From NCBI RefSeq assembly GCF_964355755.1, contig NC_092678.1, positions 3,488,422 through 3,552,421 of the forward strand: a stretch of DNA of 64,000 nt. Reading direction: 5' to 3'. The translations under genes and the position numbers were made by a program. The first letter of the stretch is position 1. Each line of letters opens with the position of its first letter. Positions 4,344 to 39,157 of this stretch are shown here, in pieces. The notes under the pieces were generated by a model that was not told the origin of the DNA, ran no database searches, and saw only the letters and a list, made by a program, of their open reading frames with translations. Source of the DNA: Antedon mediterranea (Eukaryota; Animalia; Echinodermata).

Positions 4344-4560
4344 ACTATTGACTTGATCTCTCTGTGACTTGAATACTACTGTTCGAGTTTTACAAAGGAG
4401 AAGGAATCAAAATATCATTTATTCTAATGATGTATTTATTTCACCAAGAATACGCGTTTTATTATAAGGAAGACCGGTTTCTAAAAACAATATATTTATT
4501 ATTATTTATCTATAGGCCTATCATTCTAGGAGAATGTGCATTTAGATATAATATTTATCA

Positions 4561-7639: not shown

Positions 7640-7674
<35 letters not shown>

Positions 7675-9163: not shown

Positions 9164-9307
9164 AAGCTCTGTTACACATCAAACTTTACGTGACAAACAA
9201 ATGTGATGGGCCCATATATGGATACGATGATGTCAAATCAGTACCATATTTGGGCATATCACTACCATATTTGGGCACACTTTTCTTTGTCAAACTAGTT
9301 TGGTAGT
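9164..9307. mobile_element. MITE family 1, degenerate copy
   Basis: Same left end and internal CATATTTGGGCA repeats as the element at 599-757. Confidence 0.7.
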
Positions 9308-17398: not shown

Positions 17399-18215
17399 CT
17401 GAGCCGGAACGACACCACTTAAAGCTTGACCCTCTCTACATTCTTTATTTTAGGCCTACTATTTATGGATCTCTGTTTAATATCATATAAAATAGACATC
17501 ATAGACATTGAATATAAATTACTACAAACACTGTTTTCAAAGTTTTCAATTTAATAACTATTCACCAATTATAGATTGTGCAATTTATATACGATTAGAT
17601 AGATTCCATACTACTTTCATTCGTCTTATTTGTTTAGTATTTTGACATTTTTTCATAGAAAGGAAGTTTAGGAGTATTATACATAGATTATTTTGGCGCG
17701 AATTCAGATTACACTTTTAGTGGTTAACTTTAAAGTACATTTTCACAAGACAGATTATCAACTGTCTTATTAATTCTAACGATACGCTGAAATGACGGAT
17801 TAAGATGAGTAACAATCATGTCTAAAATTGTATTAAAAAGTATGCAGTTAATACGGAGTCACCACTTCAATTTGACGTCAGTAACGCCGGGAATACTAGC
17901 ATACTAGAGGGCGTATTTTATTTTCTTTATTTCTAATTTATACTAGCGACCTCTCCAGTTCAGGAAATAACTACATTACCTATTTGTATAGGTATAAGTA
18001 CATGATGATTCCGAATATTGTTTTATGCCATATCATTCAGCGTAATTTAATACAACATATAGGCATACAAGAAGTAATCCAATGTACTAGGCCTGAGGTT
18101 GTAAATACATACATAAGTTATGCACTTACAAGAATATTCTGAAACAAATTCAAAATAAATTAAAAAAATCAAAATTTGACTATTCAGAATGTTCAGGAAA
18201 ATTTAACTTATTTTG

Positions 18216-21200
18216 TCATCGTTGATTTTCAAACCTGCTGGGAGATTCGATTGTATCAACGCATGGACCCAAGTAGGCTACACATAGGTCTGGATTATTA
18301 CGTCTACAACCAGCGGCCTTTAGATGGCACTCTGACAGATATGTCTTGCCATCAGTACCGCATACTTTTGAAGTGGAGTTTCCAGTTGGACATCGTTCGA
18401 CACACTTTTTTCTTTTGTCTGTAAATTAAAGATAGTAGACAGAAAAGATAATAATAGTATTAATAAATATCGTTTTTAAATCAATAAATTGAAGTGAGCG
18501 TTATAAACGTAAGCCCGATACTTCATTCTCTTTTGGATGCCTGTTTTTGGGGATTACCCTTTCCTGTTCGGGAAATTACCCTTTCCTGTTCGGGAAATTA
18601 CCTAATATTACCTACCTTACCTATTAAGATATCTATCATCTCTATAGAGTTTGAGCTCCATGATTTCAGAAAGAAAGTCTTTTATTCAATAATTGGAATT
18701 ATATTTGAGTAATTAATATTAATTATCCAATGAAATAAATGATTACTATTAATAAATATATTTAAAAAAACATTTACTTTTTCCTGTTGTGGATGGCTGG
18801 CTGGATCTTTCGTTGGTTCCAACAGGTTGTTCGTCTCCTGTTCTGGGCTGCTCGGCTCGTTCTTTCTTTTGCTTGGTTTGGCGATTTCTATTAGTGGGCG
18901 TTCCTTGAGCTTTAGTATAATAATTCATTTTTTTGTCACATTAATGAAGCAAATATATTAATAAATGGTCAAAACGTATACATTTTGCAAAATTTTGAGT
19001 GGAAATCGTTAACATTTATGACATAACCTGTAATTACCCTTTTCATATTGCACTGGAATAATAACTAAATATAATTTATAGGACGAGATTGGAAGACCTA
19101 CATCACGAACAAACACATCCACAGAGACGACAAACCTACCTCTATTTAGACGAGCAGATGGACCAACTGTAGGCACTACGTCATTTCTACATTGTCCTGC
19201 ATAAGCCACACTCAGTTCGATGATGTTTAGTTTGCAAGCAAATATTTCCAAAACACACGCGGATGGATAGTCGTTTCCATCAGTACCACACACACGGGAG
19301 TTACGGGATTGAAGTGGACAGCTATCTCTACAAACACTTTTCGCTGCTGTATGTGAGTAACATAATAATTATTATTTTATGTAATGTATTAATAAAGTTC
19401 AACCATACTAAAATCCTTTCGAAATGTGAAGATACTAGGTATGGATTCAAAATCCTGCATGAGAAGGGTTTGGCATAGTTATAAATATTTAAATAATAAT
19501 AATACCAATAATAGTAATAATAAAGAAAGTCAAACATACGTCTTGTGGGTTCAGCCTCCACTGGGCCATTTATTGGAGGGTCTGGCATTACAGGAGCAAT
19601 ATCTACTTCACAAGGTCCTAAATATGCTATCTTGGTATTTGAATTTTTTCTGCATGCCACAGCTTTCAAAATACAGCGCGAGACATAGGAAATACCATCC
19701 GTACCACATACTTTATCGTCAACTAATGGACAATTATCTGGACATTCGTTGTTGTCTGCAAAAGAAATGTTCAATAATCATAATAATAATATTTCGGCCA
19801 AAATCATTGGTGAGTGAATAGGTACAAAATATGAATATTTTAAAATAAAATATAAATATCTCATTACAAAGTATAAATGTATAAAACAACAGTTACCCCC
19901 ATTAGCTACAGTTGCAGTACCATCTGGGCCTCTACTTGGATGTACTTCGTCACCATTATGAGTAGTTGGTCGTGTACCTGTGTTAGAGTTAGTACTTTTG
20001 CCTGAAACCAATGTTTTGGTTCCACTCTCTGGATGGGCTGAACTGCTACTGGGCGTCACTAAACCCTCATTACCATTATCTGGGTACATTCCTTCTGTTT
20101 CCATACCATATGGATTAGTATCTCTATCAGTTTCACTACCGTCCTCATGATTTCTTCCAACTCCACTCTGTGAATTTCCTCTATTATCTGGATAGTTTTT
20201 GTCATTAGTATATGGGTTCTCTGTTGAGTCTCCATCTGGATGGAATGATTCACTCTTAGTATTCCTGTCTGGGTATGGTTCTAGGCCAGTTCTTCTATTT
20301 GGGTATATACCGGAACCAGTAATTGGATAACCAGTTGGTGATGCTCTGTCTAAGTATCCTTTCCTTTGTGAGCCGCTAACTGGATACATACCTGTACCAC
20401 CGGTAGGTCTCAATCGACTGACATAACCATTCCTATTTAAGCCACTTTCTGGAAATGTTTGTGGATTTTCATCCATTGTTCTACTATCGGGCTTGTACCC
20501 ATCTGGTCTAGTACCGGTTTTACTACCAGGATAATTTTCATTTCCTCCTGTACCACTACCTGGATATCCTCCTTGTTGCGTCCAACCTGGTGTAGGATAG
20601 GTTCCTGTACCACTGCTTGGAAAACCATCACTGCCAGTACCGCGATCTGGATTTACATTAGTACCAGTTCCACTACTTGGATAATTTCCATTTCCTCCTG
20701 TACCACTACCTGGATGTCCTCCTGTTTGCGTCCCACCAGATGTAGGAAAAGTTCCTGTTCCACTACTTTCTGGATATCTTCCTGAAGTACCACTGTTTGG
20801 ATAACCATCACTGCCAGTACCGCGATCTGGATTTACATTAGTACCGGTTCCACTACTTGGATAATTTCCATTTCCTCCTGCACCACTACCTGGATATCCT
20901 CCTGTTCGCGTCCCACCAGAGCTAGGATAAGTTCCTGTTCCACTACTTTCTGGATATCTTCCTGAAGTACCACTGTTTGGATAACCATTACTGCCGATAC
21001 CGCGGTCTGGATTTACATTAGTACTCGTTTCACTACCAGGATAATTTTCATTTCTTCCTGTACCACTACCTGGATATCCTCCTTGTTGTGTCCCACCTGG
21101 TGTAGGATAGGTTCCTGTACCACTGCTTGGATAACCATCACCGCCGGTACCGCTATCTGGATTTTCATTAGTACCGGTTTCACTACCAGGATAATTTCCA

Positions 21201-24200
21201 TTTCTTCCTGTACCACTACCTGGATATCCTCCTTGTTGCGTCCCACCAGTGTTAGGATAAGTTCCAGTTCCACTGTTTTCTGGATTTACATTAGTACGGG
21301 TTTCACTACCAGGATAATTTCCATTTCCTCCTATTCCACTACCTGGATATCCTCCTTGTTGCGTCCAACCTCGTGTAGGATAGGTTCCTGTACCACTGCT
21401 TGGAAAACCATCACTGCCAGTACCGCGATCTGGATTTACATTAGTACCGGTTTCACTACCAGGATAATTTCCATTTCTTCCTGTACCACTACCTGGATAT
21501 CCTCCTTGTTGCGTCCCACCAGTGTTAGGATAAGTTCCAGTTCCACTGTTTTCTGGATTTACATTAGTACGGGTTTCACTACCAGGATAATTTCCATTTC
21601 CTCCTATTCCACTACCTGGATATCCTCCTTGTTGCGTCCAACCTCGTGTAGGATAGGTTCCTGTACCACTGCTTGGAAAACCATCACTGCCAGTACCGCG
21701 ATCTGGATTTACATTAGTACCAGTTCCACTACTTGGATAATTTCCATTTCCTCCTGTACCACTACCTGGATGTCCTCCTGTTCGCGTCCCACCAGATGTA
21801 GGAAAAGTTCCTGTTCCACTACTTTCTGGATATCTTCCTGAAGTACCACTGTTTGGATAACCATCACTGCCAGTACCGCGATCTGGATTTACATTAGTAC
21901 CGGTTCCACTACTTGGATAATTTCCATTTCCTCCTGCACCACTACCTGGATATCCTCCTGTTCGCGTCCCACCAGAGCTAGGATAAGTTCCTGTTCCACT
22001 ACTTTCTGGATATCTTCCTGAAGTACCACTGTTTGGATAACCATTACTGCCGATACCGCGATCTGGATTTACATTAGTACTCGTTTCACTACCAGGATAA
22101 TTTTCATTTCTTCCTGTACCACTACCTGGATATCCTCCTTGTTGCGTCCCACCTGGTGTAGGATAGGTTCCTGTACCACTGCTTGAATAACCATCACCGC
22201 CAGTACCGCGATCTGGATTTTCATTAGTACCGGTTTCAATACCAGGATAATTTCCATTTCTTCCTGTACCACTACCTGGATATCCTCCTTGTTGCGTCCC
22301 ACCAGTGTTAGGATAAGTTCCAGTTCCACTGTTTTCTGGATTTACTTTAGTACGGGTTTCACTACCAGGATAATTTCCATTTCCTCCTATACCACTACCT
22401 GGATATCCTCCTGTTCGCGTCCCACCAGATGTGGGATAAGTTCCAGTTCCACTGTTTCCGGGATTTACATTAGTACCGGTTTCACTACCAGGATAATTTC
22501 CATTTCCTCCTGTACCACTACCTGGATATCCTCCTGTTCGCGTCCCACCAGATGTAGGATAAGTTCCTGTTCCACTACTTTCTGGATGTCGTCCAGATGT
22601 ACCACTGTTTGGATAAGCATCACTGCCGATAACGCGATCTGGATTTACATTAGTACTCGTTTCACTACCAGGATAATTTTCATTTCTTCCTGTACCAGTA
22701 CCTGGATATCCTCCTTGTTGCGTCCCACCTGGTGTAGGATAGGTTCCTGTACCACTGCTTGGATAACCATCATCGCCAGTACCGCGATCTGGATTTTCAT
22801 TAGTACTGGTTTCACTACCAGGATAATTTCCATTTCTTCCTGTACCACTACCTGGATATCCTCCTTGTTGCGTCCCACCAGTGTTAGGATAAGTTCCAGT
22901 TCCACTGTTTTCTGGATTTTCATTAGTGCTGGTTTCACTACCAGGATAATTTCCATTTCTTCCTGTACCACTACCTGGATATACTCCTTGTTGCGTCCCA
23001 CCAGTGTTAGGATAAGTTCCTGTTCCACTAGTTTCTGAATTTACATTAGTACCGGTTTCACTACCTGGATAATTTCCATTTCCTTCTGAACCACTACCTG
23101 GATATCCTCCTTGTTGCCTCCCACCTGGTGTAGGATAGGTTCCTGTACCACTGCTTGGATAACGATCACTGCCAGTACCGCGATCTGGATTTACATTAGT
23201 ACCCGTTTCACTACCAGGATAATTTCCATTTCCTTCTGGACCACTACCTGGATATCCTCCGGTTAGCGTCCCACCAGATGTAGGATAAGTTCCAGTTCCA
23301 CTGTTTCCGGGATTTATTTTAGTACCGGTTTCACTACCAGGATAATTTCCATTTCCTCCTGTACCACTACCTGAATATCCTCCTGTTCGCGTCCCACCAG
23401 ATGTAGAATAAGTTCCTGTTCCACTACTTTCTGGATGTCGTCCAGATGTACCACTGTTTGGATAACCATTACTGCCGATACCGCGATCTGGATTTACATT
23501 AGTACTCGTTTCACTACCAGGATAATTTTCATTTCTTCCTGTACCACTACCTGGATATCCTCCTTGTTGCGTTCCACCTGGTGTAGGATAGGTTCCTGTA
23601 CCACTGCTTGGATAACCATCAACGCCAGTACCGCGATCTGGATTTTCATTAGTACCGGTTTCACTACCAGGATAATTTCCATTTCTTCCTGTACCACTAC
23701 CTGGATATCCTCCTTGTTGCGTCCCACCAGTGTTAGGATAAGTTCCAGTTCCACTGTTTTCTGGATTTACATTAGTACGGGTTTCACTACCAGGATAATT
23801 TCCATTTCCTCCTATACCACTACCTGGATATCCTCCTGTTCGCGTCCCACCAGATGTGGGATAAGTTCCAGTTCCACTGTTTTCGGGATTTACATTAGTA
23901 CCGGTTTCACTACCAGGATAATTTCCATTTCCTCTTGTACCACTACCTGGATATCCTCCTGTTCGCGTCCCACCAGATGTAGGATAAGTTCCTGTTCCAC
24001 TACTTTCTGGATGTCGTCCAGATGTACCACTGTTTGGATAACCATTACTGCCGATACCGCGATCTGGATTTACATTAGTACTCGTTTCACTACCAGGATA
24101 ATTTTCATTTCTTCCTGTACCACTACCTGGATATCCTCCTTGTTGCGTCCCACCTGGTGTAGGATAGGTTCCTGTACCACTGCTTGGATAACCATCACCG

Positions 24201-27200
24201 CCAGTACCGCGATCTGGATTTTCATTAGTACCGGTTTCACTACCAGGATAATTTCCATTTCTTCCTGTACCACTACCTGGATATCCTCCTTGTTGCGTCC
24301 TACCAGTGTTAGGATAAGTTCCAGTTCCACTGTTTTCTGGATTCACATTAGTACGGGTTTCACTACCAGGATAATTTCCATTTCCTCCTATACCACTACC
24401 TGGATATCCTCCTGTTCGCGTCCCACCAGATGTGGGATAAGTTCCAGTTCCACTGTTTCCGGGAGTTACATTAGTACCGGTTTCACTACCAGGATAATTT
24501 CCATTTCCTCCTGTACCACTACCTGGATATCCTCCTGTTCGCGTCCCACCAGATGTAGGATAAGTTCCTGTTCCACTACTTTCTGGATGTCGTCCAGATG
24601 TACCACTGTTTGGATAAGCATCACTGCCGATACCGCGATCTGGATTTACATTAGTACTCGTTTCACTACCAGGATAATTTTCATTTCTTCCTGTACCACT
24701 ACCTGGATATCCTCCTTGTTGCGTCCCACCTGGTGTAGGATAGGTTCCTGTACCACTGCTTGGATAACCATCACTGCCAATACCGCGATCTGGATTTTCA
24801 TTAGTACCGGTTTCACTACCAGGATAATTTCCATTTCTTCCTGTACCACTACCTGGATATCCTCCTTGTTGCGTCCCACCAGTGTTAGGATAAGTTCCAG
24901 TTCCACTGTTTTCTGGATTTACATTAGTACGGGTTTCACTACCAGGATAATTTCCATTTCCTCCTATACCACTACCTGGATATCCTCCTGTTCGCGTCCC
25001 ACCAGACGTGGGATAAGTTCCAGTTCCACTGTTTCCGGGATTTACATTAGTACCGGTTTCACTACCAGGATAATTTCCATTTCCTCCTGTACCACTACCT
25101 GGATATCCTCCTGTTCGCGTCCCACCAGATGTAGGATAAGTTCCTGTTCCACTACTTTCTGGATGTCGTCCAGATGTACCACTGTTTGGATAAGCATCAC
25201 TGCCGATACCGCGATCTGGATTTACATTAGTACTCGTTTCACTACCAGGATAATTTTCATTTCTTCCTGTACCACTACCTGGATATCCTCCTTGTTGCGT
25301 CCCACCTGGTGTAGGATAGGTTCCTGTACCACTGCTTGGATAACCATCACCGCCAGTACCGCGATCTGGATTTTCATTAGTACCGGTTTCACTACCAGGA
25401 TAATTTCCATTTCTTCCTGTACCACTACCTGGATATCCTCCTTGTTGCGTCCTACCAGTGTTAGGATAAGTTACAGTTCCACTGTTTTCTGGATTCACAT
25501 TAGTACGGGTTTCACTACCAGGATAATTTCCATTTCCTCCTATACCACTACCTGGATATCCTCCTGTTCGCGTCCCACCAGATGTGGGATAAGTTCCAGT
25601 TCCACTGTTTCCGGGAGTTACATTAGTACCGGTTTCACTACCAGGATAATTTCCATTTCCTCCTGTACCACTACCTGGATATCCTCCTGTTCGCGTCCCA
25701 CCAGATGTAGGATAAGTTCCTGTTCCACTACTTTCTGGATGTCGTCCAGATGTACCACTGTTTGGATAACCATTACTGCCGATACCTCGATCTGGATTTA
25801 CATTAGTACTCGTTTCACTACCAGGATAATTTTCATTTCTTCCTGTACCACTACCTGGATATCCTCCATGTTGCGTACCACCTGGTGTAGGATAGGTTCC
25901 TGTACCACTGCTTGGATAACCATCACCGCCAGTACCGCGATCTGGATTTTCATTAGTACCGGTTTCACTACCAGGATAATTTTCATTTCTTCCTGTACCA
26001 CTACCTGGATATCCTCCTTGTTGCGTCCCACCAGTGTTAGGATAAGTTCCAGTTCCACTGTTTTCTGGATTTACATTAGTACGGGTTTCACTACCAGGAT
26101 AATTTCCACTTCCTCCTATACCACTACCTGGATATCCTCCTGTTCGCGTCCCACCAGATGTGGGATAAGTTCCAGTTCCACTGTTTCCGGGATTTACATT
26201 AGTACCGGTTTCACTACCAGGATAATTTCCATTTCCTCCTGTACCACTACCTGGATATCCTCCTGTTCGCGTCCCACCAGATGTAGGATAAGTTCCTGTT
26301 CCACTACTTTCTGGATGTCGTCCAGATGTACCACTGTTTGGATAACCATCACTGCCGATACCGCGATCTGGATTTACATTAGTACTCGTTTCACTACCAG
26401 GATAATTTTCATTTTTTCCTGTACCACTACCTGGATATCCTCCTTGTTGCGTCCCACCTGGTGTAGGATAGGTTCCTGTACCACTGCTTGGATAACCATC
26501 ACCGCCAGTACCGCGATCTGGATTTTCATTAGTACCGGTTTCACTACCAGGATAATTTCCATTTCTTCCTATACCACTACCTGGATATCCTCCTTGTTGC
26601 GTCCCACCAGTGTTAGGATAAGTTCCTGTTCCACTACTATCTGGATTTTCATTAGTACCGGTTTCACTACCAGGATAATTTCCATTTCCACCTGAACCAC
26701 TACCTGGATATCCTCCTTGTTGCGTCCCACCTGGTGTAGGATAGGTTCCTGTACCACTGCTTGGATAACGATCACTGCCAGTACCGCGATCTGGATTTAC
26801 ATTAGTACCCGTTTCACTACCAGGATAATTTCCTTTTCCTTCTGGACCACTACGTGGGTATCCTCCTGTTCGCGTCCCACCAGATGTGGGATAAGTTCCA
26901 GTTCCACTGTTTCCGGGATTTACATTAGTACCGGTTTCACTACCAGGATAATTTCCATTTTCCCCTGTACCACCACCTGGATATCCTTCTGTTCGCGTCA
27001 CACCAGATGTAGGATAAGTTCCTGTTCCACTACTTTCTGGATATCGTCCAGATGTACCACTGTTTGGATAACCATCACTGCCGGTACCGTGATCTGGATT
27101 TACATTAGTACTCGTTTCACTACCAGGATAATTTTCATTTCCTCCTATACCACTACCTGGATATCCTCCTTGTTGCGTCCCACCTGGTGTAAGATAGGTT

Positions 27201-30200
27201 CCTGTACCACTGCTTGGATAACCATCACTGCCAGTACCGCGATCTGGATTTTCATTAGTACCGGTTTCACTAACAGGATAATTTCCATTTTTTCCTGTAC
27301 CACTACCTGGATATCCTCCTTGTTGCGTCCCACCAGTGTTAGGATAAGTTCCTGTTCCACTAGTTTCTGAATTTACATTAGTACCGGTTTCACTACCTGG
27401 ATAATTTCCATTTCCTTCTGAACCACTACCTGGATATCCTCCTTGTTGCGTCTCACCTGGTGTTGGATAAGTTCCAGTTCCACTGTTTCCAGGATTTACA
27501 TTAGTACCGGTTTCACTACCAGGATAATTTCCATTTCCTCTTGTACCACTACCTGGATATCCTCCTGTTCGCGTCCCACCAGATGTAGGATAAGTTCCTG
27601 TTCCACTACTTTCTGGATGTCGTCCAGATGTACCACTGTTTGGATAACCATTACTGCCGATACCGCGATCTGGATTTACATTAGTACTCGTTTCACTACC
27701 AGGATAATTTTCATTTCTTCCTGTACTACTACCTGGATATCCTCTTTGTTGCGTCCCACCTGGTGTAGGATAGGTTCCTGTACCACTGCTTGGATAACCA
27801 TCACCGCCAGTACCACCGCGATCTGGATTTTCATTAGTACCGGTTTCACTACCAGGATAATTTCCATTTCTTCCTGTACCACTACCTGGATATCCTCCTT
27901 GTTGCGTCCCACCAGTGTTAGGATAGGTTCCAGTTCCACTGTTTTCTTGATTCACATTAGTACGGGTTTCACTACCAGGATAATTTCCATTTCCTCCTAT
28001 ACCACTACCTGGATATCCTCCTGTTCGCGTCCCACCAGATGTGGGATAAGTTCCAGTTCCACTGTTTCCGGGATTTATATTAGTACCGGTTTCACTACCA
28101 GGATAATTTCCATTTCCTCCTGTACCACTACCTGGATATCCTCCTGTTCGCGTCCCACCAGATGTAGGATAAGTTCCTGTTCCACTACTTTCTGGATATC
28201 GTCCAGATGTACCACTGTTTGGATAACCATCACTGCCGGTACCGTGATCTGGATTTACATTAGTACTCGTTTCACTACCAGGATAATTTTCATTTCTTCC
28301 TGTACCACTACCTGGATATCCTTGTTGCGTCCCACCTGGTGTAGGATAGGTTCCTGTACCACTGCTTGGATAACCATCACTGCCAATACCGCGATCTGGA
28401 TTTTCATTAGTACCGGTTTCACTAACAGGATAATTTCCATTTCTTCCTGTACCACTACCTGGATATCCTCCTTGTTGCGTCCCACCAGTGTTAGGATAAG
28501 TTCCTGTTCCACTAGTTTCTGAATTTACATTAGTACCGGTTTCACTACCTGGATAATTTCCATTTCCTTCTGGACCACTACCTGGATATCCTCCGGTTGG
28601 CGTCCCACCAGATGTGGGATAAGTTCCAGTTCCACTGTTTCCTGGATTTACATTAGTACCGGTTTCACTAATAGGATAATTTCCATTTCCTCCTCTACCA
28701 CTACCTGGATATCCTCTTGTTCGCGTCCCACCGGATGTGGGATAAGTTCCAGTTCCACTGTTTCCGGGATTTACATTAGTACCGGTTTCACTAATAGGAT
28801 AATTTCCATTTCCTCCTCTACCACTACCTGGATATCCTCCTGTTCGCGTCCCACCGGATGTGGGATAAGTTCCAGTTCCACTGTTTCCGGGATTTACATT
28901 AGTACCGGTTTCACTAATAGGATAATTTCCATTTCCTCCTCTACCACTACCTGGATATCCTTCTGTTCGCGTCCCACCAGATGTAGGATAAGTTCCTGTT
29001 CCACTACTTTCTGGATATCGTCCAGATGTACCACTGTTTGGATAACCATCACTGCCGGTACCGTGATCTGGATTTACATTAGTACTCCTCTCACTACCAG
29101 GATAATTTTCATTTCTTCCTGTACCACTACCTGGATATCCTCCTTGTTGCGTCCCACCTGGTGTAGGATAGGTTCCTGTACCACTGCTTGGATAACCATC
29201 ACTGCCAGTACCGCGATCTGGATTTTCATTTGTACCGGTTTCACTACCAGGATAATTTCCATTTCTTCCTGTACCACTACCTGGATATCCTCCTTGTTGC
29301 GTCCCACCAGTGTTAGGATAAGTTCCTGTTCCACTAGTTTTTGAATTTACATTAGTACCGGTTTCACTACCTGGATAATTTCCATTTCCTTCTGAACCAC
29401 TACCTGGATATCCTCCTTGTTGCGTCCCACCTGGTGTAGGATATGTTCCTGTACCACTGCTTGGATAACGATCACTGCCAGTACCGCGATCTGGATTTAC
29501 ATTAGTACCCGTTTCACTACCAGGATAATTTCCATTTCCTTCTGGACCACTACCTGGATATCCTCCTGTTCGCGTCCCACCAGATGTAGGATAAGTTCCT
29601 GTTCCACTACTTTCTGGATGTCGTCCAGATGTACCACTGTTTGGATAACCATCACTGCCGATACCGCGATCTGGATTTACATTAGTACTCGTTTCACTAC
29701 CAGGATAATTTTCATTTCTTCCTGTACCACTACCTGGATATCCTCCTTGTTGCGTCCCACCTGGTGTAGGATAGGTTCCTGTACCACTGCTTGGATAACC
29801 ATCACCGCCAGTACCGCGATCTGGATTTTCATTAGTACCGGTTTCACTACCAGGATAATTTCCATTTCTTCCTATACCACTACCTGGATATCCTCCTTGT
29901 TGCGTCCCACCAGTGTTAGGATAAGTTCCTGTTCCACTACTATCTGGATTTTCATTAGTACCGGTTTCACTACCAGGATAATTTCCATTTCCACCTGAAC
30001 CACTACCTGGATATCCTTCTTGTTGCGTCCCACCTGGTGTAGGATAGGTTCCTGTACCACTGCTTGGATAACGATCACTGCCAGTACCGCGATCTGGATT
30101 TACATTAGTACCCGTTTCACTACCAGGATAATTTCCTTTTCCTTCTGGACCACTACGTGGGTATCCTCCTGTTCGCGTCCCACCGGATGTGGGATAAGTT

Positions 30201-33200
30201 CCAGTTCCACTGTTTCCGGGATTTACATTAGTACCGGTTTCACTACCAGGATAATTTCCATTTTCCCCTGTACCACCACCTGGATATCCTTCTGTTCGCG
30301 TCACACCAGATGTAGGATAAGTTCCTGTTCCACTACTTTCTGGATATCGTCCAGATGTACCACTGTTTGGATAACCATCACTGCCGGTACCGTGATCTGG
30401 ATTTACATTAGTACTCGTTTCACTACCAGGATAATTTTCATTTCCTCCTATACCACTACCTGGATATCCTCCTTGTTGCGTCCCACCTGGTGTAGGATAG
30501 GTTCCTGTACCACTGCTTGGATAACCATCACTGCCAGTACCGCGATCTGGATTTTCATTAGTACCGGTTTCACTAACAGGATAATTTCCATTTCTTCCTG
30601 TACCACTACCTGGATATCCTCCTTGTTGCGTCCCACCAGTGTTAGGATAAGTTCCTGTTCCACTAGTTTCTGAATTTACATTAGTACCGGTTTCACTACC
30701 TGGATAATTTCCATTTCCTTCTGAACCACTACCTGGATATCCTCCTTGTTGCGTCTCACCTGGTGTTGGATAAGTTCCAGTTCCACTGTTTCCGGGATTT
30801 ACATTAGTACCGGTTTCACTACCAGGATAATTTCCATTTCCTCCTCTACCACTACCTGGATATCCTTCTGTTCGCGTCCCACCAGATGTAGGATAAGTTC
30901 CTGTTCCACTACTTTCTGGATATCGTCTAGATGTACCACTGTTTGGATAACCATCACTGCCGGTACCGTGATCTGGATTTACATTAGTACTCCTCTCACT
31001 ACCAGGATAATTTTCATTTCTTCCTGTACCACTACCTGAATATCCTCCTTGTTGCGTCCCACCTGGTGTAGGATAGGTTCCTGTACCACTGCTTGGAAAA
31101 CCATCACTGCCAGTACCGCGATCTGGATTTTCATTTGTACCGGTTTCACTATCAGGATAATTTCCATTTCTTCCTGTACCACTACCTGGATATCCTCCTT
31201 GTTGCGTCCCACCAGTGTTAGGATAAGTTCCTGTTCCACTAGTTTTTGAATTTACATTAGTACCGGTTTCACTACCTGGATAATTTCCATTTCCTTCTGA
31301 ACCACTACCTGGATATCCTCCTTGTTGCGTCCCACCTGGTGTAGGATATGTTCCTGTACCACTGCTTGGATAACGATCACTGCCAGTACCGCGATCTGGA
31401 TTTACATTAGTACCCGTTTCACTACCAGGATAATTTCCATTTCCTTCTGGACCACTACCTGGATATCCTCCGGTTGGCGCCCCACCAGATAGATAAGTTC
31501 CAGTTCCACTGTTTTCTGGATTTACATTAGTACGGGTTTCACTACCAGGATAATTTCCATTTCCTCCTATACCACTACCTGGATATCCTCCTGGTCGCGT
31601 CCCACCAGATGTGGGATAAGTTCCAGTTCCACTGTTTCCGGGATTTACATTAGTACTGGTTTCACTACCAGGATAATTTCCATTTCCTCCTGTACCACTA
31701 CCTGGATATCCTCCTGTTCGCGTCCCACCAGATGTAGGATAAGTTCCTGTCCCACTGCTTTCTGGATGTCGTCCAGATGTACCACTCTTTGGATAACCAT
31801 CACTGCCGATACCGCGATCTGGATTTACATTAGTACTCGTTTCACTACCAGGATAATGTTCATTTCCTTCTGAACCACTACCTGAATATCCTCCTTCTAG
31901 CGTCCCACCTGGTGTAGGATAGGTTCCTGTACCACTGCTTGGATAACTATCACCGCCAGTACCGCTATCTGGATTTAAATTGGTACCGGTTTCACTACCA
32001 GGATAATTTCCGTTTCTTGCTGTAACACTTCCTGGATATCCTCCTTGTTCCGTCCCACCAGTGTTAGTATAAGTTCCAGTTCTACTGTTTTCTGGATATC
32101 CTCCAGCTGTACCATTGTTAGGATAACCATCACTGCCAGTACTGCGATCTACATTAATACCCGTTTCACTACCAGGATAATTTCCATTTCCTCCTGTACC
32201 ACTACCTGGATATCCTCCTTGTTGCGTCCCACCAGATTTAGGATAGGTTCCTGTACCACTATTTGGATAACCATCACTGCCAGTACCGCGATCTACATTA
32301 ATACCCGTTTCACTACCAGGATAATTTCCATTTCCTCCTGTACCAGTACCTGGATATCCTCCTTGTTGCGTCCCACCAGATGTAGGATTGGTTCCTGTAC
32401 CACTATTTGGATATCCATTACTGCCAGTACCGCGATCGGGATTTACATTAATACCTGTTTCACTAACTGGATAATTTCCATTTTCTCTTGTACCACTACC
32501 TGGATATTCTCCGGTTCGAGTCCCACCAGAGTTAGGATATGTTCCATTTCCATTGTTTTCTGGATATCGTCCAGTTGTACCACTGTTAGGATAACCATCA
32601 CTGCCAGTACTGCGATCTGGATTTACATTAGTACCCGTTTCACTACCAGGATAATTTCCGTTTCTTACTGTACCACTACCTGGATATCGTCCTTGTTGCG
32701 TCCCACCAGAGTTAGGATAAGTTCCAGTTCCACTGTTTTCTGGATATCGTCCAGCAGTACCACTGCTTTTATCACTGCCAGTACCGCGATCTGGAGTGAC
32801 GTTAGTACCCGTTTCACTACCAGGATATTTTCCGTTTCTTACTGTACCACTATCTGTTGGATATCCTCCTTGTTGCGTCCCACCTGAGTTAGGATAAATT
32901 CCAGTACCGCTGCTTTCTGGATATCGTCCAGCTGTACCACTGTTTGGATAACCATCACTGCCAGTACCGCGATCTGAGTTTACATTGGTACCGGTTTCAC
33001 TACCAGGATAATTTCCATTTCTTGCTCTACCACTTCCTGGGTATCCTCCTTGTTGCGTCCCACCTGAGTTAGGATAAGTTCCAGTTCCACTGTTTTCTGG
33101 ATATCGTCCAGCAGTACCACTGCTTGGGTAGCTATCACTGCCAGTACCGCGATCTGGATTTACGTTAGTACCCGTTTCACTACCAGGATAATTTCCGTTT

Positions 33201-36200
33201 CTTGCTGTACCACTTCCTGAATATCCAGTTCCACGGTTTTCTGGATATCGTCCAGATCTACCACTGTTTGGATAACCATCACTGCCAGTACTGCGATCAG
33301 GATTTATATTAGTACCCGTTTCACTACTAGGATAATTTCCATTTCCTCCTGTACCACTACCTGGATATCCTCCTTGTTGCGTCCCACCAGATGTAGGATA
33401 GGTTCCTGTACCACTATTTGGATAACCATCACTGCCAGTACCGCGATCTACATTAATACCCGTTTCACTACCAGGATAATTTCCATTTCCTTCTGTACCA
33501 CTACCTGGATATCCTCCTTGTTGCGTCCCACCAGATGTAGGATTGGTTCCTGTACCACTATTTGGATATCCATTACTGCCAGTACCGCGATCGGGATTTA
33601 TATTAATACCTGTTTCACTAACTGGATAATTTCCATTTTCTCCTGTACCACTACCTGGATATTCTCCGGTTCGAGTCCCACCAGAGTTAGGATATGTTCC
33701 ATTTCCATTGTTTTCTGGATATCGTCCAGATCTACCACTGTTTGGATAACCATCACTGCCAGTACTGCGATCAGGATTTATATTAGTACCCGTTTCACTA
33801 CCAGGATAGTTTCCATTTCCTCCTCCTGTACCACTACTTGGATATCCTCCCTGTTGCGTCCCACCTGAGTTAGGATAAGATCCAGTTCCACTGTTTCCGG
33901 GATATCGCCCAGCTGTAGCACTGCCAGGATAAGCATCGCTGCCAGTACCGTGATCTGGATTTACATTGATACCGGTTTCACCACCAGGATAGTTTTCCTT
34001 TCCTCCTGTACCACTACTTGGATATCCTCCTTGTTGCGTCCCATCTGAGTTAGGATAAGTTCCATTTCCACTGTTTCCGGGATATCGCCCAGCTGTACCA
34101 CTGTCAGGATAAGCATCGCTGCTAGTACCGCGATCTGGATTTACATTGGTACCGGTTTCACCACCATGATAGTTTCCATTTCCTCCTGTACCACTACCTG
34201 GATATCCTCCTTGTTGCGTCCCACCTGGTGTAGGATAGGTTCCTGTACCACTGCTTGGATAACGATCACTGCCAGTACCGCGATCTGGATTTACATTAGT
34301 ACCCGTTTCACTACCAGGATAATTTCCATTTCCTTCTGTACCACTACCTGGATATCCTCCGGTTCTCGTCCCACCAGATGTAGGATAAGTTCCAGTTCCA
34401 CTGTCAGGATAAGCATCGCTGCTAGTACCGCGATCTGGATTTACATTGGTACCGGTTTCACCACCATGATAGTTTCCATTTCCTCCTGTACCACTACCTG
34501 GATATCCTCCTTGTTGCGTCCCACCTGGTGTAGGATAGGTTCCTGTACCACTGCTTGGATAACGATCACTGCCAGTACCGCGATCTGGATTTACATTAGT
34601 ACCCGTTTCACTACCAGGATAATTTCCATTTCCTTCTGTACCACTACCTGGATATCCTCCGGTTCTCGTCCCACCAGATGTAGGATAAGTTCCAGTTCCA
34701 CTGTCAGGATAAGCATCGCTGCTAGTACCGCGATCTGGATTTACATTGGTACCGGTTTCACCACCATGATAGTTTCCATTTTCTCTTGTACCACTACCTG
34801 GATATTCTCCGGTTCGAGTCCCACCAGAGTTAGGATATGTTCCATTTCCATTGTTTTCTGGATATCGTCCAGTTGTACCACTGTTAGGATAACCATCACT
34901 GCCAGTACCGCGATCTGGATTTACATTAGTACCACTTTCACTACCAGGATAATTTCCGTTTCTTGCTGTACCGCTTCCTGGATATCTTCCTTGTTGCGTC
35001 CCACCATCAGAGTTAGGATATGATCCAGTTCCACTGTTTTCTGGATCTCCTCTTGGTAGCGACCCTCCAGAGCTAGGGTAAGAATTGCGTCCAGTTGTCG
35101 TACCACTATTTGGGTAAGTGCCTTTATATATCTTATGAATATTACAATCGGTATAGATTCCTCTTTCATGCTCCCTTTCTGAATGTGTTCTCTCGTTATC
35201 AGTTTTGTCAGCACTCTGACGGACTGGTGTGCTGCTATCAGTAGTATAAAAACGGCTTCTACTTGTTGAATATGTTGGTCTATCCCTACTATCCGGATTC
35301 ATGCCTTTACTTCTGTCTGTATAGTACCTCCTTAGAATACCACCGTCTTGATTTCCTCTATTTTCAACAGTGCCATCTACTGGATACAGTCCAGTACCCC
35401 TCTCTTTATTTGTGTTGGTACTAGTACCTCTTTCTGGGTAATATTTTGTTCTTGTGCCATCATTTTTCGGGAGGCTGCTATTTCGTTTGCCACCATTTTG
35501 TGATCCAGGTTCAGGAATATGAGTACCGAAATTGACATTGTCGCTATCTCGGCATAAATGCCAGCCTGGGAATAGATCTAATATAGTACGTCGAATATTT
35601 GAATTGTCAACAGTAGGACTGTCATTGTAAGTTCGTTCTCTTTGCTGTGTATAACCGGGGTTGACGTCTGTTGTTTGTTGTCGGGGGTAACCATCCATGC
35701 CACCAGACGAATAACCAACATTATAACCTTGTCTTTGGTCTGGATACTGGTTGTAATAGTTAGTGCCTGGATACCGATATTGATTTCCAGGATACATACC
35801 GGTGTTATAATATCCACCCGTGTTTGGTGACTGTTGGGGATACCATCCCCTTGGTGCTGATGTATAATATCTATTATTGTAAGAATCGCCATTATTTGCT
35901 GGATATCTCATTTCCCTTCCAGGATACCTTGCAGTGTCAGGTGTTCTTTGGTGAGAATAAAAGTCGTATCCACTAGGATAGGGACCGTAATTTGGTTGTG
36001 CTTCTCTGTATGGATACTGAGTTGTGCCAGGACCTGAATAGAAGCCAGTATTAGGTCCTGCTCTTCTTGGGTAGCCGTTTGCGTCACCTTGTGGGTATAA
36101 GCCAGTCCTACCTTGGGAATACGTTCCGAAGTTGGCTTGATCAGGCTGTGGATATGGTAAGAAACCTATTACTGGATACATGCCACCACTGCTGCTGCTA

Positions 36201-38626
36201 CTACTACTACTACTACTGCTGCTGCTACTACTACTGCTGCTGCTGCTACTACTGCTGCTGCTACCGTCTGCAGAGGTAGTTGTTGAAGTAGAATCTTTTT
36301 CGTTTTTATCACGAGGGACGTTATCACTTTGTGAAGATGATTTGTTTGGATCCTCGACTCCAGTAACTGGTTCTTGACGGAAATTTCTTTCATTTGTCAC
36401 AATCTGATTTCTTCTTTCATTTATATCAGGTAAAATTGGCTCATTTGTATCAGGTAAAATGGGCTCATTTGGATAAGTCTCGTCTCGTTCAGAAGGAATC
36501 TCTTGTTTTGGATTCGAATTGAAATTAGTACCCCTATCAGAATCCGTTGGTTGAAAAGAAGGTTGTTCTTTTCTTCTTGAAGGATCTTCCCGACCAACAT
36601 TTTTTTCATTTCCTTTGTTTGGATTTCCCCGAGTGTTTTCCTTGCCACCATTTCCACTGCGAGTAGGTCCAGGATTTTTCACAGGATTTTGTGGATCACT
36701 TGATGTAGGTCTATCTGTAATGTTTAATATTAAAGAATGATTGAAGATAAATAATTTAAAAGTATTGTACTACTTGTAATAATTTTCCTCGAATTTCATT
36801 CGCTTTTTTGAACAGAAAATACAGATGATACTCTTACTTGGTTTTTGAGCTATGTAGCGTGTTGTCTGCTCTCCGCTGTCGTCATCATTACTATCACCGC
36901 CAGTATTCTGTTTGGCAACTTCGCCATATTTAACTCCTGTCAATATACAATACCAAACATTGTAATTAATGGTATAAATTATGAAAAATAAGGTTTTATA
37001 CTGCATCTATTAATACGCTAGGTGGATAAAAGGATAGTAATAGTAATACCGTACCTCCACTTTCACCACTGTCATCGTCATCACCTTCTGTGTAAGCGAC
37101 GACACCAGTTCCTAAGGAAATACAAACTTCCAAATTAAAGGCTAACCAAACAAGTACACTGTATCATGTATATAAAAGGTAACAATACACAGGCAGACAA
37201 ATAAACATGTAGTAAAAATGAAGAATAAAAGGTAATTGTAATTATTAAAGTTGACGCACCTTTTCTGATTTCACCGCTATCGTCATCATCACCTTCAGCA
37301 AATTCCTGTTGTAATGTTCCTATAGAAATACAAACTTCCAAATTAAAGGCTAACCAAACAAGTACACTGTATCATGTATATAACATGTATACTTATACAA
37401 GATACTAAAGAAGAAGAAATGAAGAATAAAAGGAACTGTGACGCACCTGCTCTGATTTCACCGCTGTCGTCATCATCACCTTCTGTGTTAGTGACGACAC
37501 CATCAGCGAGTTCCTGTTTTAATGCTCCTAACGAAATTATAAAACTAAAGTTTAAACTGGAAAATATAATAATCATTTATATACAAATATTACAAAACAC
37601 AAACTAAACATAGACTTGAAGTTAAAAAATATTTTTAAAAATAAAAGCGAAAATGTACCGGTAGTTATATTATCATTATTAACGCACCTCCAGTTTTGAT
37701 TTCACCGCTATCATCGTCATCACCGTTTGTCAATGCAGCTCCAACACCGCCAATGAGTTCTTGTAGCAGTTCTTTTTCTTTTAAGGAAAGTAAAGTGAAG
37801 TTTATAATAACAGTTTTTATTATTACAGTTGCCTGACAGTGATGTTTTGTGATTTGGATTCTGGCAATTCCATTGTCGAATCATCAACAAAATTTATTTT
37901 ATATTATATTAAAAACTGTAATTAATAATGTATGTACTCATTATTATTTATGTAATCATAATACTATTATGGGATGGTATCGTATTTGTAAAGCGTTTTA
38001 TAATGACAACTGTCTGAAATGACAGTGGACTAATGCTGCATCATCTCCTTTCCTAATAGTCCATTTGTTTCGAACTCATGCAGTTGTATCTTACTTTGTG
38101 CATTTTCCCCGTACTTTAGCTTAATAATACCCCGAATATGTAGATATTGGTTATTGAAACATAACTATTAAAACTGTTTTGTGTTTACCATGTTCTTGAT
38201 TAAGTGCGTCAGGTTCAACTGTACCGCCTACCAATCGTGCGATTACAGATCCAATGCTTCCACCGCCACCACTATCATCATCATCATCATCTAAAGGAAA
38301 CATTTTTTTAACTTTCTTTCTTAAGATTCATTAAGTTTTTTAAACAACCCCACGAAAGAGAAAAAAAAAAGTTTTTTTAAACAAGTACCTCTTTTTTCAA
38401 CTAATTTTAAATATATGTTATTGACGCTCAAAGAGACGCGCACGTTCAAAAGCTGATAAAAACAGCATGACTTTTCTTTGCGTTAACTTGTTGTGTGTGT
38501 GTTATTGACGATAGTTAATATGTAAATGTCTCACTTACCACTTTCATGTCCAACAAGTTCTCTCCATGGCAATGATGTTACCTTCGTTGTAAGAACTACC
38601 AGTATTAATAAACTGCGCATGTGCAT
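18216..38626 (-). CDS. Gene E: giant secreted Gly/Ser/Thr/Tyr-Pro repeat protein with acidic DDDSG N-terminus and 3 C-terminal Kazal domains, about 6050 aa, 12 coding exons
   Basis: Exons 38626-38539 (MHMRSLLILVVLTTKVTSLPW.., signal-like), 38290-38189, 37777-37688, 37527-37447, 37319-37260, 37111-37055, 36936-36838, 36714-19897, 19755-19540 (Kazal), 19346-19140 (Kazal), 18909-18778, 18418-18216 (Kazal, TGA). All phase-1 GT-AG; total 18153 nt. A 5'UTR exon ends at the donor near 39040. Confidence 0.85.
19897..36714 (-). CDS. Gene E giant exon (16,818 nt, 5606 codons): poly-Ser, Tyr-rich block and GYPGSGTG-type repeat array
   Basis: Uninterrupted 5634-aa ORF in the track; acceptor tacag at 36715-36719 and donor gtaac at 19892-19896 keep phase 1 with the flanking exons. 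Confidence 0.93.
20520..35040 (-). repeat. Coding tandem array: 39-aa core SGTGTYPTSGGT(RT/QQ)GGYPGSGTG(G/R)N(G/E)NYPGSETGTN(V/E)NP in 123/150/180-bp variants forming a 576-bp higher-order repeat
   Basis: Shadow ORFs recur at 23494, 24070, 24646, 25222, 25798 and 26374 (576-bp steps); 41+41+50+60 aa = 192 aa. Confidence 0.95.
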
Positions 38627-39120
38627 CCCTGTGTGTTAACATTAAAATACTGATAGTTGAAAAGACATTCGGAGTGTTATTACCGCACTCAAACCCGTGC
38701 GTGCGTCCGTGCATATGTACAGCTCATAGTTTACGCGCATGACATTACTACCTGGCCCATTATTATTTTTTAAATATATAGTTTAAATACCGTATTAGGT
38801 AAATTCAGCAATACGTGTTGCGCAAAATTGCGGACCTGTTTTTATAACCGCTAACGCATTACTAACTTAAGACAACGATTGATACCTAATAATAAAAGTA
38901 TTTAAACAAATTAACTTATTTATAACAAGGTTAATATGTTTAACTGCTATAAGTAATATACACCTGCAAAGAATAATTTAATTTTAAAATTGCTATTATT
39001 ATTTTTATTAATAATACTAAATAAATTTAATATCGCTTACCGTGACACTGTGTTCCTTAATTGTGATGGAAGTTGTTGTCGACTTATTTTCTGTTTGACT
39101 AAAAAGTTTACAAACTCCAC

Positions 39121-39157
39121 TTTATACCCAGCAAGTTGGTCTAGGTAATGACGTCAT
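39121..39157 (-). promoter_or_regulatory. Gene E core promoter: TATAAA box plus palindromic CRE (ATGACGTCAT)
   Basis: Minus-strand TATAAA at 39121-39126 and TGACGTCA at 39149-39156, upstream of a short 5'UTR exon ending at a gtaag donor (39036-39040). Confidence 0.55.

What the first reader, a model, noticed from the sequence alone, without database searches (positions are those of the whole stretch)
18216..38626. Gene E: about 6050-aa secreted elastomer/adhesive-like protein with a 16.8-kb exon and Kazal end-caps
Seen: signal peptide, six acidic DDDSG microexons, a charged spacer, Ser25, a Tyr/Gly/Pro/Gln block, about 4800 aa of Cys-free G/S/T/N/Y/P repeats with Tyr-Pro roughly every 10-11 residues, then three Kazal domains. 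Known: Pro/Gly beta-turn repeats with periodic Tyr occur in elastomeric or adhesive proteins (HMW glutenin GYYPTS, spidroin GPGGY/GPGQQ, resilin), where Tyr can be cross-linked. Inference: a disordered or beta-spiral fibre with folded terminal assembly domains. I do not recognise this architecture as a named protein.
Basis: partly seen in the sequence, partly recalled or inferred. Interest (0 to 1): 0.9.

Follow-up and report, generated by a model that had tools for sequence, protein, structure and literature searches.

The report
Giant feather-star gel-forming matrix protein
This stretch of a likely feather-star genome holds an open 16.8-kb reading frame of tyrosine-studded glycine/threonine repeats that is predicted to splice into a 6,050-residue secreted protein with an acidic head and three Kazal domains, a likely cross-linked gel-forming matrix polymer rather than a rubber, with no relative found in the databases searched.

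Summary
The gene model holds: 12 minus-strand exons, 11 GT-AG phase-1 introns, 6,050 aa, one 16,818-nt exon. The array (95 monomers, ten ~192-aa higher-order units) looks coding and real: 0 of 37 possible nonsense alleles, every 400-mer unique. Splicing is unverified, since no RNA data were obtained. A neighbouring gene is 75% identical to an Anneissia japonica 'agrin-like' protein, so the animal is likely a crinoid. Gene E sits in a same-strand array of about nine secreted-type genes with 23 Kazal domains. Three searches found no homologue, only one weak snail look-alike.

The elastomer label is only partly supported. Composition is resilin-like, but 2P+G is 0.485 (threshold 0.6), Thr is 15%, and AlphaFold gives no fold.

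Best reading (0.4): a disordered, polyanion-headed polymer cross-linked through Tyr and end cysteines into a hydrogel in skeleton or ligament matrix. Main rival: a glandular glue or mucus (0.28). New variant of a known kind; interest 0.55.

The parts
39040..39156 (-). Candidate promoter and non-coding first exon: CRE-type octamer 39149-39156, TATA-like box 39121-39126, splice donor at 39040
   Evidence: Octamer; TATA box and donor read by eye; untested
38539..38626 (-). Exon 1: start codon and likely signal peptide
   Evidence: hydropathy and donor; no signal-peptide predictor run
36838..38290 (-). Exons 2-7 (38290-38189, 37777-37688, 37527-37447, 37319-37260, 37111-37055, 36936-36838): microexons of 57-102 nt, each with one D3-6-Ser-Gly site; five are also Ser-x-Glu
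   Evidence: exons and an intron are tandem duplicates (79% over 189 nt)
19897..36714 (-). Exon 8, 16,818 nt, open in one frame
   Evidence: the other two sense frames hold 107 and 616 stops over 15,936 nt; GC 42-46% against 26% in six introns sampled
36188..36262 (-). Ser25 run (13 AGC, 12 AGT)
35015..36187 (-). Tyr/Gly/Pro/Gln block followed by a charged non-repetitive stretch holding Cys580 (codon at 35554) and Cys716 (codon at 35146)
   Evidence: no Pfam match
20534..35014 (-). Repeat core, 4,827 aa: 380 sub-units of mostly 8-20 aa, nearly all ending Tyr-Pro; 95 monomers of 41, 50 or 60 aa; ten 191-193-aa higher-order units
19897..20533 (-). Degenerate non-repetitive tail of exon 8 (212 aa)
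19540..19755 (-). Exon 9: Kazal domain 1 and Pro-rich linker
   Evidence: Pfam Kazal_2 E 1e-11; agrin and follistatin top in PDB sequences
19140..19346 (-). Exon 10: Kazal domain 2
   Evidence: Pfam Kazal_2 E 6.6e-9
18778..18909 (-). Exon 11: charged 44-aa linker
18216..18418 (-). Exon 12: Kazal domain 3 with an extra seventh Cys (aa 6029, codon 18284-18282) and stop
   Evidence: Pfam E 1.3e-11; AlphaFold pLDDT 82; Cys at this column in 1 of 23 window domains and 0 of 267 domains from 39 database hits
17917..17931 (-). Two candidate polyadenylation signals
   Evidence: untested

Best explanation
Gene E is predicted to encode a ~600-kDa secreted crinoid matrix polymer whose likely disordered 4,800-residue Gly/Thr/Ser/Asn chain would be knitted into a hydrated gel through its regularly spaced tyrosines and three spare end cysteines, likely anchored in skeleton or ligament matrix by a polyanionic head and three follistatin-type Kazal domains. 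Shown: the open frame, repeat grammar, composition, acidic Ser-Gly sites, spare Cys, Kazal fold and gene cluster. Inferred steps: (1) all 12 exons are spliced into one message; (2) in the Golgi the six head sites take glycosaminoglycan chains or phosphate and Ser25 is phosphorylated, giving a Ca2+- or collagen-binding head; (3) the core stays disordered, with Tyr-Pro as stickers between polar spacers; (4) Cys6029 and Cys580/716 link chains end to end and a peroxidase forms dityrosine; (5) the Kazal domains act mainly as binding modules; (6) the site is the skeletal or connective matrix.
For: Coding signal: 0 of 37 possible nonsense alleles against 59 of 228 synonymous and 105 of 617 missense (pN/pS 0.66, Fisher p 0.0045), and all 11 off-length units keep the frame. 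Tyr is retained in 349 of 369 consensus slots, mostly replaced by Phe or His; 349 of 361 core Tyr precede Pro. The core is hydrophilic (GRAVY -1.33, net charge -0.025 per residue) and gives no fold. The six head sites have 4-6 acidic residues in the six positions before Ser-Gly, the context reported for chondroitin sulfate attachment (PMC10424144, passages). Five are Ser-x-Glu, a motif nearly absent from the core (1 seen, 23 expected). An acidic Gly-Ser-Gly site in neighbouring gene A is kept in Anneissia. The extra Cys sits in a column that is polar or charged in 18 of the other 22 window domains. Profile and fold hits are led by agrin, follistatin and hevin. Agrin/Kazal proteins occur in brittle-star and urchin skeletal proteomes (PMC4336488, PMC5460417, passages). 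Crinoid ligaments carry sulfated chondroitin along collagen, while echinoderms lack aggrecan and elastin (PMC10381214, passages).
Against: No expression, tissue or splice data were obtained. No orthologue was found, so no cross-species test of any motif was possible. Between recent duplicate blocks changes are near neutral (synonymous/missense codons 4/20 and 16/45; neutral expectation about 1:2.7), so residue-level constraint is weak. The skeletal-proteome Kazal proteins were not shown to be orthologues of this cluster, and the crinoid proteome list could not be read. Fold scores do not separate follistatin-type domains from true inhibitors (rhodniin ranks 4th). A low pLDDT from a 17-row near-identical alignment is weak evidence of disorder. 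Giant single-exon repeat proteins are typical of glandular secretions (recalled).
Confidence: 0.4

Rival explanations
1. Bulk glandular secretion: a glue, cement or feeding mucus (larval adhesive pit, embryos held on genital pinnules, tube-foot mucus) that sets by Tyr cross-linking and Ca2+ bridging of the phosphorylated head, with Kazal domains guarding it from proteases.
For: Size, single giant exon and concerted repeats. Crinoids have an adhesive pit and brood embryos on pinnules (PMC11336682, passages). Sea-cucumber adhesive proteins are orphan 33-46-aa tandem repeats (PMC10120082, passages). P1 is Leu, Leu, Thr in the three domains, and Leu suits chymotrypsin- or subtilisin-type proteases (recalled).
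Against: Lys is 0.3% and the core is net acidic, unlike mussel DOPA/Lys glues (recalled). Core Ser+Thr is 21-32% per 100 aa, below a mucin PTS level of about 40% (threshold recalled). No beta-sheet model like the sea-cucumber proteins. 20 of 23 cluster domains have Ser where canonical inhibitors keep Asn (role of Asn recalled).
Confidence: 0.28
2. True rubber-like elastomer, a resilin analogue storing energy in arm, cirrus or stalk ligaments.
For: Composition close to Rec1-resilin for Gly, Pro, Ser, Asn, Tyr, Asp and Arg (against PMC4455251); pI 4.7 against 4.8; periodic Tyr; echinoderms lack elastin; end cysteines recall HMW glutenin (recalled).
Against: 2P+G is 0.485 (0.41-0.53 by window), below 0.6. 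Only 9% of inter-Pro gaps are 7 or less, against 79%. Thr is 15.4% against 2%, and Thr-x-Thr is 219 against 114 expected. Fibrillin microfibrils already account for elasticity in sea-cucumber dermis.
Confidence: 0.12
3. Aggrecan-like bottle-brush proteoglycan in which many of the 292 core Ser-Gly sites carry chains and Tyr-Pro only keeps the backbone extended.
For: 292 Ser-Gly and 88 Gly-Ser-Gly in the core; Ser-Gly enriched 1.85-fold; echinoderms lack aggrecan yet have abundant chondroitin sulfate.
Against: Only 12 of 292 core sites have two or more acidic residues within five positions. Gly-Thr is more enriched than Ser-Gly (2.29-fold). Tyr conservation is left unexplained.
Confidence: 0.08
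4. Egg-coat or fertilization-envelope protein hardened by ovoperoxidase dityrosine cross-links.
For: Periodic Tyr, hydrophilic repeats, secreted-type start; envelope chemistry in sea urchins is recalled.
Against: No LDL-receptor-A or CUB domains, which mark the urchin envelope proteins (recalled; Pfam). One paper search gave nothing relevant.
Confidence: 0.07
5. The model is wrong: an assembly-inflated array, or exon 8 not joined as predicted.
For: No RNA support. Blocks at 576, 1056 and 3303 nt offset are 97.8-98.8% identical. Exon 8 holds in-frame donor-like sites at 32842 and 32668 and AATAAA at 35410 and 23318.
Against: The longest exact repeat is 384 nt and every 400-mer is unique. Divergence is graded, 8-10% at the 5' end and 4-5% elsewhere. 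No frameshift in 5,605 codons, and flanking splice phases match.
Confidence: 0.05

Closest known systems
Anneissia japonica 'agrin-like' XP_033105664.1 (P0002) and echinoderm multi-Kazal proteins
   Same: Secreted-type, Ser-type Kazal domains with low-complexity linkers. It is the likely orthologue of neighbouring gene A (75% over 144 aa; nine Kazal domains each; 7 domain pairs with strong support).
   Different: 749 aa, no giant core and no acidic microexons; not the orthologue of gene E.
Agrin
   Same: Follistatin-type Kazal domains (top PDB sequence hit); a proteoglycan (title of a reference seen).
   Different: No laminin-EGF, EGF, LamG, NtA or SEA match in the stretches scanned; three Kazal domains at the C-terminus, not nine.
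SPARCL1/hevin and the vertebrate SCPP cluster
   Same: Signal peptide, acidic Ser-x-Glu head and follistatin-Kazal domain (hevin is the top fold hit by a thin margin); tandem same-strand cluster of secreted acidic and Pro/Gln-rich genes.
   Different: No EF-hand EC domain. All introns are phase 1, whereas SCPP introns are phase 0 (PMC7807025, passages). An analogy, not membership.
Resilin (Rec1)
   Same: Hydrophilic Gly/Ser/Asn/Pro chain with about 7% periodic Tyr and pI near 4.8.
   Different: 2P+G 0.485 against 0.63; Thr 15% against 2%; wide Pro spacing; no chitin-binding domain; a core about 15 times the 310-aa Rec1 construct.
HMW glutenin subunits and spidroins (recalled, not tested)
   Same: Long Cys-free Gly/Pro/Tyr repeat domain with cysteines or folded caps at the ends.
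   Different: Gln-poor; acidic glycan-site head; Kazal caps; no sequence similarity found.
Holothuria leucospilota Cuvierian outer-layer proteins
   Same: Orphan echinoderm secreted proteins with long tandem repeats (33-46 aa; PMC10120082).
   Different: Those lack known domains and three of four model as serial beta-sheets. Gene E has Kazal domains, 10% Pro and no predicted fold.
Bradybaena similaris hypothetical protein BFZ20106.1 (P0040)
   Same: Secreted-looking protein with an 11-aa repeat containing Tyr-Pro-x-Ser-Gly (30 copies; 192 in the gene E core counting His/Phe variants).
   Different: E 8e-4, 32% identity, 952 aa, no Kazal-type cysteines; most likely convergent.

Membership tests
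Kazal / follistatin-like domain | Six-Cys pattern, Pfam Kazal_2 above cut-off, Kazal fold | tested here: met
   3 of 3 domains pass (36-45 bits, cut-off 22.8); domain 3 folds at pLDDT 82 and matches Kazal/follistatin structures
Kazal serine protease inhibitor (function) | Asn two residues before Cys4 bracing the reactive loop (feature recalled) | tested here: not met
   Ser in 3 of 3 gene E domains and 20 of 23 window domains; Asn in 178 of 267 domains from 39 hits; follistatin domains 2 and 3 also have Ser
Kazal serine protease inhibitor (function) | Inhibits a protease | not testable with these tools
   P1 Leu, Leu, Thr; needs an assay
Agrin | Laminin-EGF, EGF and laminin-G domains after the follistatin array | tested here: not met
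   Only Kazal families in exons 9, 10 and 12; none in the exon 8 stretches scanned
SPARC/SPARCL1, SMOC, testican | EF-hand EC domain (plus thyroglobulin domain in SMOC and testican) | tested here: not met
   The model ends 14 aa after the last Kazal Cys; no such Pfam match
SCPP | All introns phase 0 | tested here: not met
   11 of 11 phase 1; criterion from PMC7807025
SCPP | Tandem cluster of secreted genes with acidic Ser-x-Glu exons | tested here: met
   About nine same-strand genes; Ser-x-Glu-rich acidic exons in C, E, F and H; likeness only
Rubber-like elastomeric proteins (resilin, elastin type) | 2Pro+Gly of at least 0.6 | tested here: not met
   0.485, windows 0.41-0.53; threshold from PMC4455251 and PMC7061623
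Rubber-like elastomeric proteins (resilin, elastin type) | Disordered hydrated backbone | tested here: inconclusive
   pLDDT 33.7 from a shallow alignment; GRAVY -1.33
Resilin | Regularly spaced cross-linkable Tyr | tested here: met
   7.5% Tyr, median Tyr-Pro spacing 11, 95% retained across copies
Resilin | Di/trityrosine cross-links and high resilience | not testable with these tools
   Needs native protein or a recombinant gel
Chondroitin/heparan sulfate proteoglycan | Ser-Gly preceded by acidic residues in a low-complexity region | tested here: met
   Six head sites with 4-6 acidic residues upstream, beyond all 20,000 shuffles; criterion from PMC10424144
Chondroitin/heparan sulfate proteoglycan | Chain actually attached | not testable with these tools
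   Phosphorylation at Ser-x-Glu could compete at five of six sites (kinase motif recalled)
Lectican (aggrecan/versican) | Link/Ig G1 and lectin G3 domains (recalled) | tested here: not met
   No such Pfam match
Gel-forming mucin | PTS domain with Ser+Thr above about 40% and VWD/cystine-knot ends (recalled) | tested here: not met
   Core Ser+Thr 21-32% per 100 aa; no VWD or CK match
Sea-urchin spicule matrix proteins (SM50 type) | C-type lectin domain joined to repeats | tested here: not met
   No lectin match; definition from PMC5460417
Cuvierian amyloid-patterned adhesives | No known domains; repeats modelled as serial beta-sheets | tested here: not met
   Has Kazal domains; no secondary structure predicted; definition from PMC10120082

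The most novel reading that the evidence does not exclude
Crinoids independently built an SCPP-like gene cluster from follistatin-Kazal genes, and its giant member is a proteoglycan-resilin hybrid. One chain would be glued to ossicle or collagen by a glycan/phosphoserine head, polymerised end to end through spare cysteines and cured by dityrosine, supplying the elastic gel that echinoderm ligaments need without elastin or aggrecan.
Probability: 0.12. Interest if true: 0.85.

Novelty: new variant of a known kind. Interest (0 to 1): 0.55.

Why it matters
Echinoderms lack elastin and aggrecan, yet their ligaments hold sulfated chondroitin and behave as tunable elastic gels (PMC10381214, passages). 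Gene E is a concrete candidate core protein or gel-former with a defined 192-aa unit that can be expressed and tested. Repeat-rich giant exons like this are probably missed in short-read crinoid assemblies (inference), so a major matrix or adhesive component may have gone unseen. The surrounding cluster would be a parallel to the vertebrate SPARCL1-to-SCPP expansion. The design principle (repeat core plus folded caps) is already known from other structural proteins, so the novelty is in the architecture and lineage.

Tried and rejected
Homology searches that found no relative: exon-8 residues 150-900 against proteins of 30-3,081 aa (0 of the 7,986 best candidates scored); Kazal exon 9 against proteins of 126-2,000 aa (0 of 4 candidates); the last 901 aa of exon 8 against 1.84 billion representatives of any length (1 weak snail hit). 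Proteins of 3,100-9,900 aa were not searched in the 5.8-billion set, and the Kazal exons were not searched in the representative set. Pfam on exon 8 pieces was blank.

No whole genome is held.

Four look-ups of earlier scan findings returned nothing. Paper searches: crinoid+Kazal (6 papers, none describing such a protein by listing; one read in passages); feather star+adhesive+protein+transcriptome (18 found, 17 listed); fertilization-envelope terms (1 irrelevant); Kazal+adhesive protein+sea star+tube feet (2, neither on echinoderms by title); four repeat motifs as text (0). The four readable supplements of PMC7351957 hold no Kazal or agrin term, and its main supplement was too large to read, so the 280-protein crinoid skeletal list may bear on the tissue claim. 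PMC1259848 is not held.

Rejected: long plus-strand ORFs over the array (up to 1,106 aa) as antisense shadows; agrin orthology; mucin PTS; SCPP membership; simple assembly duplication. A Kazal tree (60 domains, 47 columns) left gene E's three domains in an unresolved group with the cluster's domains, two agrin domains and one brittle-star domain, so local origin is not shown. Thr-x-Thr enrichment suggested a beta-solenoid, but AlphaFold gave none.

Full report
OBSERVATION. The minus strand carries an open frame of 5,663 codons at 36769-19781. Splice signals give a 12-exon model from ATG 38626 to TGA 18216: 18,153 nt, 6,050 aa, about 603 kDa, pI 4.8, with 11 of 11 introns GT-AG, phase 1 and 118-411 nt long. 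Exon 8 is 16,818 nt. Its GC is 42-46% against 26% in six introns sampled, and the other two sense frames hold 107 and 616 stops over 15,936 nt. Exons 9, 10 and 12 each pass Pfam Kazal_2. A CRE-type octamer, a TATA-like box and a donor at 39156-39040 suggest a non-coding first exon (read by eye). The upstream gene D ends with its own stop near 40870. No RNA evidence was obtained, so splicing is a prediction.

REPEAT ANATOMY. The core (35014-20534, 4,827 aa) parses without remainder into 380 sub-units of eight classes, nearly all ending in Tyr-Pro. These form 95 monomers (36 of the 41-aa type, 32 of 50 aa, 25 of 60 aa, 2 odd) and ten higher-order units of 191-193 aa. Composition is G28.1 T15.4 S11.3 P10.2 N10.1 Y7.5 E4.3 R4.1 D2.6 Q2.4 K0.3, and 349 of 361 Tyr precede Pro. 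Tyr-Pro spacing has median 11 and mean 13.8.

IS IT CODING AND REAL? Among single-base alleles relative to class consensus, 59 of 228 possible synonymous, 105 of 617 missense and 0 of 37 nonsense changes are seen (pN/pS 0.66, p 0.0045; chance of no stop 1e-3 to 1.5e-5). All 11 off-length units keep the frame; those 11 were left out of the allele count. Against this, two recent duplicate blocks differ near-neutrally (4/20 and 16/45 synonymous/missense codons), so selection keeps frame, composition and Tyr/Asn/Gln more than exact residues. The longest exact repeat is 384 nt, every 400-mer is unique, and divergence is 8-10% at the 5' end and 4-5% elsewhere. This fits concerted evolution better than assembly inflation.

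CONTEXT. An exon of the first gene in the window is 75% identical to Anneissia japonica 'agrin-like' XP_033105664.1, and the other 38 hits are at 28-38%. Both proteins have nine Kazal domains, seven pairing with strong support. The animal is therefore likely a crinoid other than that species. The window holds about nine minus-strand genes with signal-peptide-type starts (A 61991, B near 53770 with start not found, C 47332, D 42608, E, F 13136, G 8206, G' near 5473, H 2785). A-F carry 23 Kazal domains (9, 6, 2, 2, 3, 1), and C, F and H have acidic Ser/Glu-rich exons. Gene E is the giant member of this array.

HOMOLOGUES. None was found for the head of exon 8, for Kazal exon 9 or for the last 901 aa of exon 8 among 1.84 billion representatives, except a land-snail hypothetical protein with an 11-aa Tyr-Pro-x-Ser-Gly repeat at E 8e-4, probably convergent. 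Four repeat motifs appear in no paper of the library, and crinoid+Kazal gave six general papers. Limits: giant proteins were not searched in the larger set, and no crinoid genome could be searched.

TESTING THE ELASTOMER IDEA. Rec1-resilin has G34 P14 S14.5 N6.6 Y6.9 and pI 4.8 (PMC4455251, passages), close to gene E except Thr (2% against 15.4%). The published elastomer threshold is 2P+G of at least 0.6. Gene E gives 0.485 and no 192-aa window exceeds 0.53; 9% of Pro gaps are 7 or less, against 79% in Rec1-resilin. AlphaFold on one unit with a 17-row alignment gave pLDDT 33.7 and no secondary structure, which is compatible with disorder but weak. It works like a Tyr-sticker polymer but does not meet the rubber criterion.

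(1) The six head sites have 4-6 acidic residues before Ser-Gly (at most 2 such sites in 20,000 shuffles), the context described for chondroitin sulfate attachment (PMC10424144, passages). Five are also Ser-x-Glu, the Golgi casein kinase motif (recalled), which the core avoids (1 against 23 expected). The microexons arose by tandem duplication. Of 292 core Ser-Gly sites only 12 have two nearby acids, so heavy glycanation of the core is less likely. (2) Three of 21 Cys lie outside the Kazal pattern: 580, 716 and 6029. The last sits in a mostly polar column and is unique among 23 window domains and 267 database domains. This allows end-to-end disulfide polymers; it is untested. (3) The Kazal domains resemble agrin, follistatin and hevin modules and carry Ser where inhibitors usually have Asn (role recalled), though fold scores do not exclude inhibitors.

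MECHANISM. The most likely reading (0.4) is a secreted disordered chain of up to about 1.8 micrometres contour length, with a glycan- or phosphate-loaded anionic head binding Ca2+, mineral or collagen, Tyr-Pro stickers cured by peroxidase, end cysteines that polymerise chains, and Kazal caps that bind partners. The skeletal or ligament site is inferred from agrin/Kazal proteins in brittle-star and urchin skeletal proteomes (PMC4336488, PMC5460417, passages) and from chondroitin sulfate along crinoid ligament collagen despite the absence of aggrecan and elastin (PMC10381214, passages). The crinoid skeletal list itself could not be read (PMC7351957, passages and four supplements). Rivals are a glandular glue or mucus 0.28 (PMC11336682 and PMC10120082, passages), rubber 0.12, bottle-brush proteoglycan 0.08, egg coat 0.07 and a wrong model 0.05.

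COMPARISON AND VERDICT. Gene E is not agrin, a SPARC-family protein, an SCPP (phase-1 introns; PMC7807025, passages), a lectican, a mucin or a spicule-matrix lectin by the features tested. It works like an end-capped repeat polymer with a proteoglycan-type head, in a cluster that parallels the SCPP array. The architecture was not found in the searches named, but the design principle is known: new variant of a known kind.

Noticed in passing
window 58185-61991 (minus): Gene A, nine Kazal domains, likely orthologue of Anneissia 'agrin-like' XP_033105664.1; it is not agrin by domain content and keeps an acidic Gly-Ser-Gly site in both species.
   Followed up: partly
window 49150-53790 (minus): Gene B, six Kazal domains, most strongly basic (net +3 to +9), with acidic or Thr/Pro linkers; possible glycosaminoglycan binder. 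Start codon not located.
   Followed up: partly
window 44780-47332 and 40870-42608 (minus): Genes C and D: short secreted-type two-Kazal genes; C has an acidic poly-Ser/Glu exon, D a Glu-rich tail.
   Followed up: partly
window 10790-13136 (minus): Gene F: signal peptide, Tyr/Asn-rich stub, acidic Ser/Glu exon (12241 to about 12117), Thr-rich stretch and one Kazal domain; a miniature SPARCL1-like layout without the EC domain.
   Followed up: partly
window 4560-8206 (minus): Two small secreted-type peptide genes (starts 8206 and about 5473) sharing a near-identical short exon start (about 6758 and 4722); one has a dibasic site before a two-Cys peptide. No Kazal domain; function unknown.
   Followed up: no
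window 419-2785 (minus): Gene H: signal peptide, poly-Gln then Ser5-Glu5-Gly4 exon; appears to run off the window's low end.
   Followed up: no
window 13706, 14835, 17873, 39149, 49042: Five exact CRE-type octamers (0.74 expected, 0 of 100 shuffles reach 5); two lie 20-40 nt before TATA-like boxes upstream of genes E and F, hinting at shared regulation.
   Followed up: partly
window about 640-740, 1560-1650, 9180-9300, 14940-15110: A dispersed repeated element with similar sequence recurs in introns and intergenic DNA (read by eye; 21-nt tandem units at 9237 and 15054); possibly a small transposon.
   Followed up: no
P0040 (Bradybaena similaris BFZ20106.1): Land-snail secreted-looking protein with about 30 copies of an 11-aa Tyr-Pro-x-Ser-Gly repeat, suggesting convergence on the same sticker spacing.
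   Followed up: partly
window 23375-26692 (plus): A 1,106-codon antisense open frame over the array, with other shorter ones; treated as a by-product of the repeat's codon use.
   Followed up: partly
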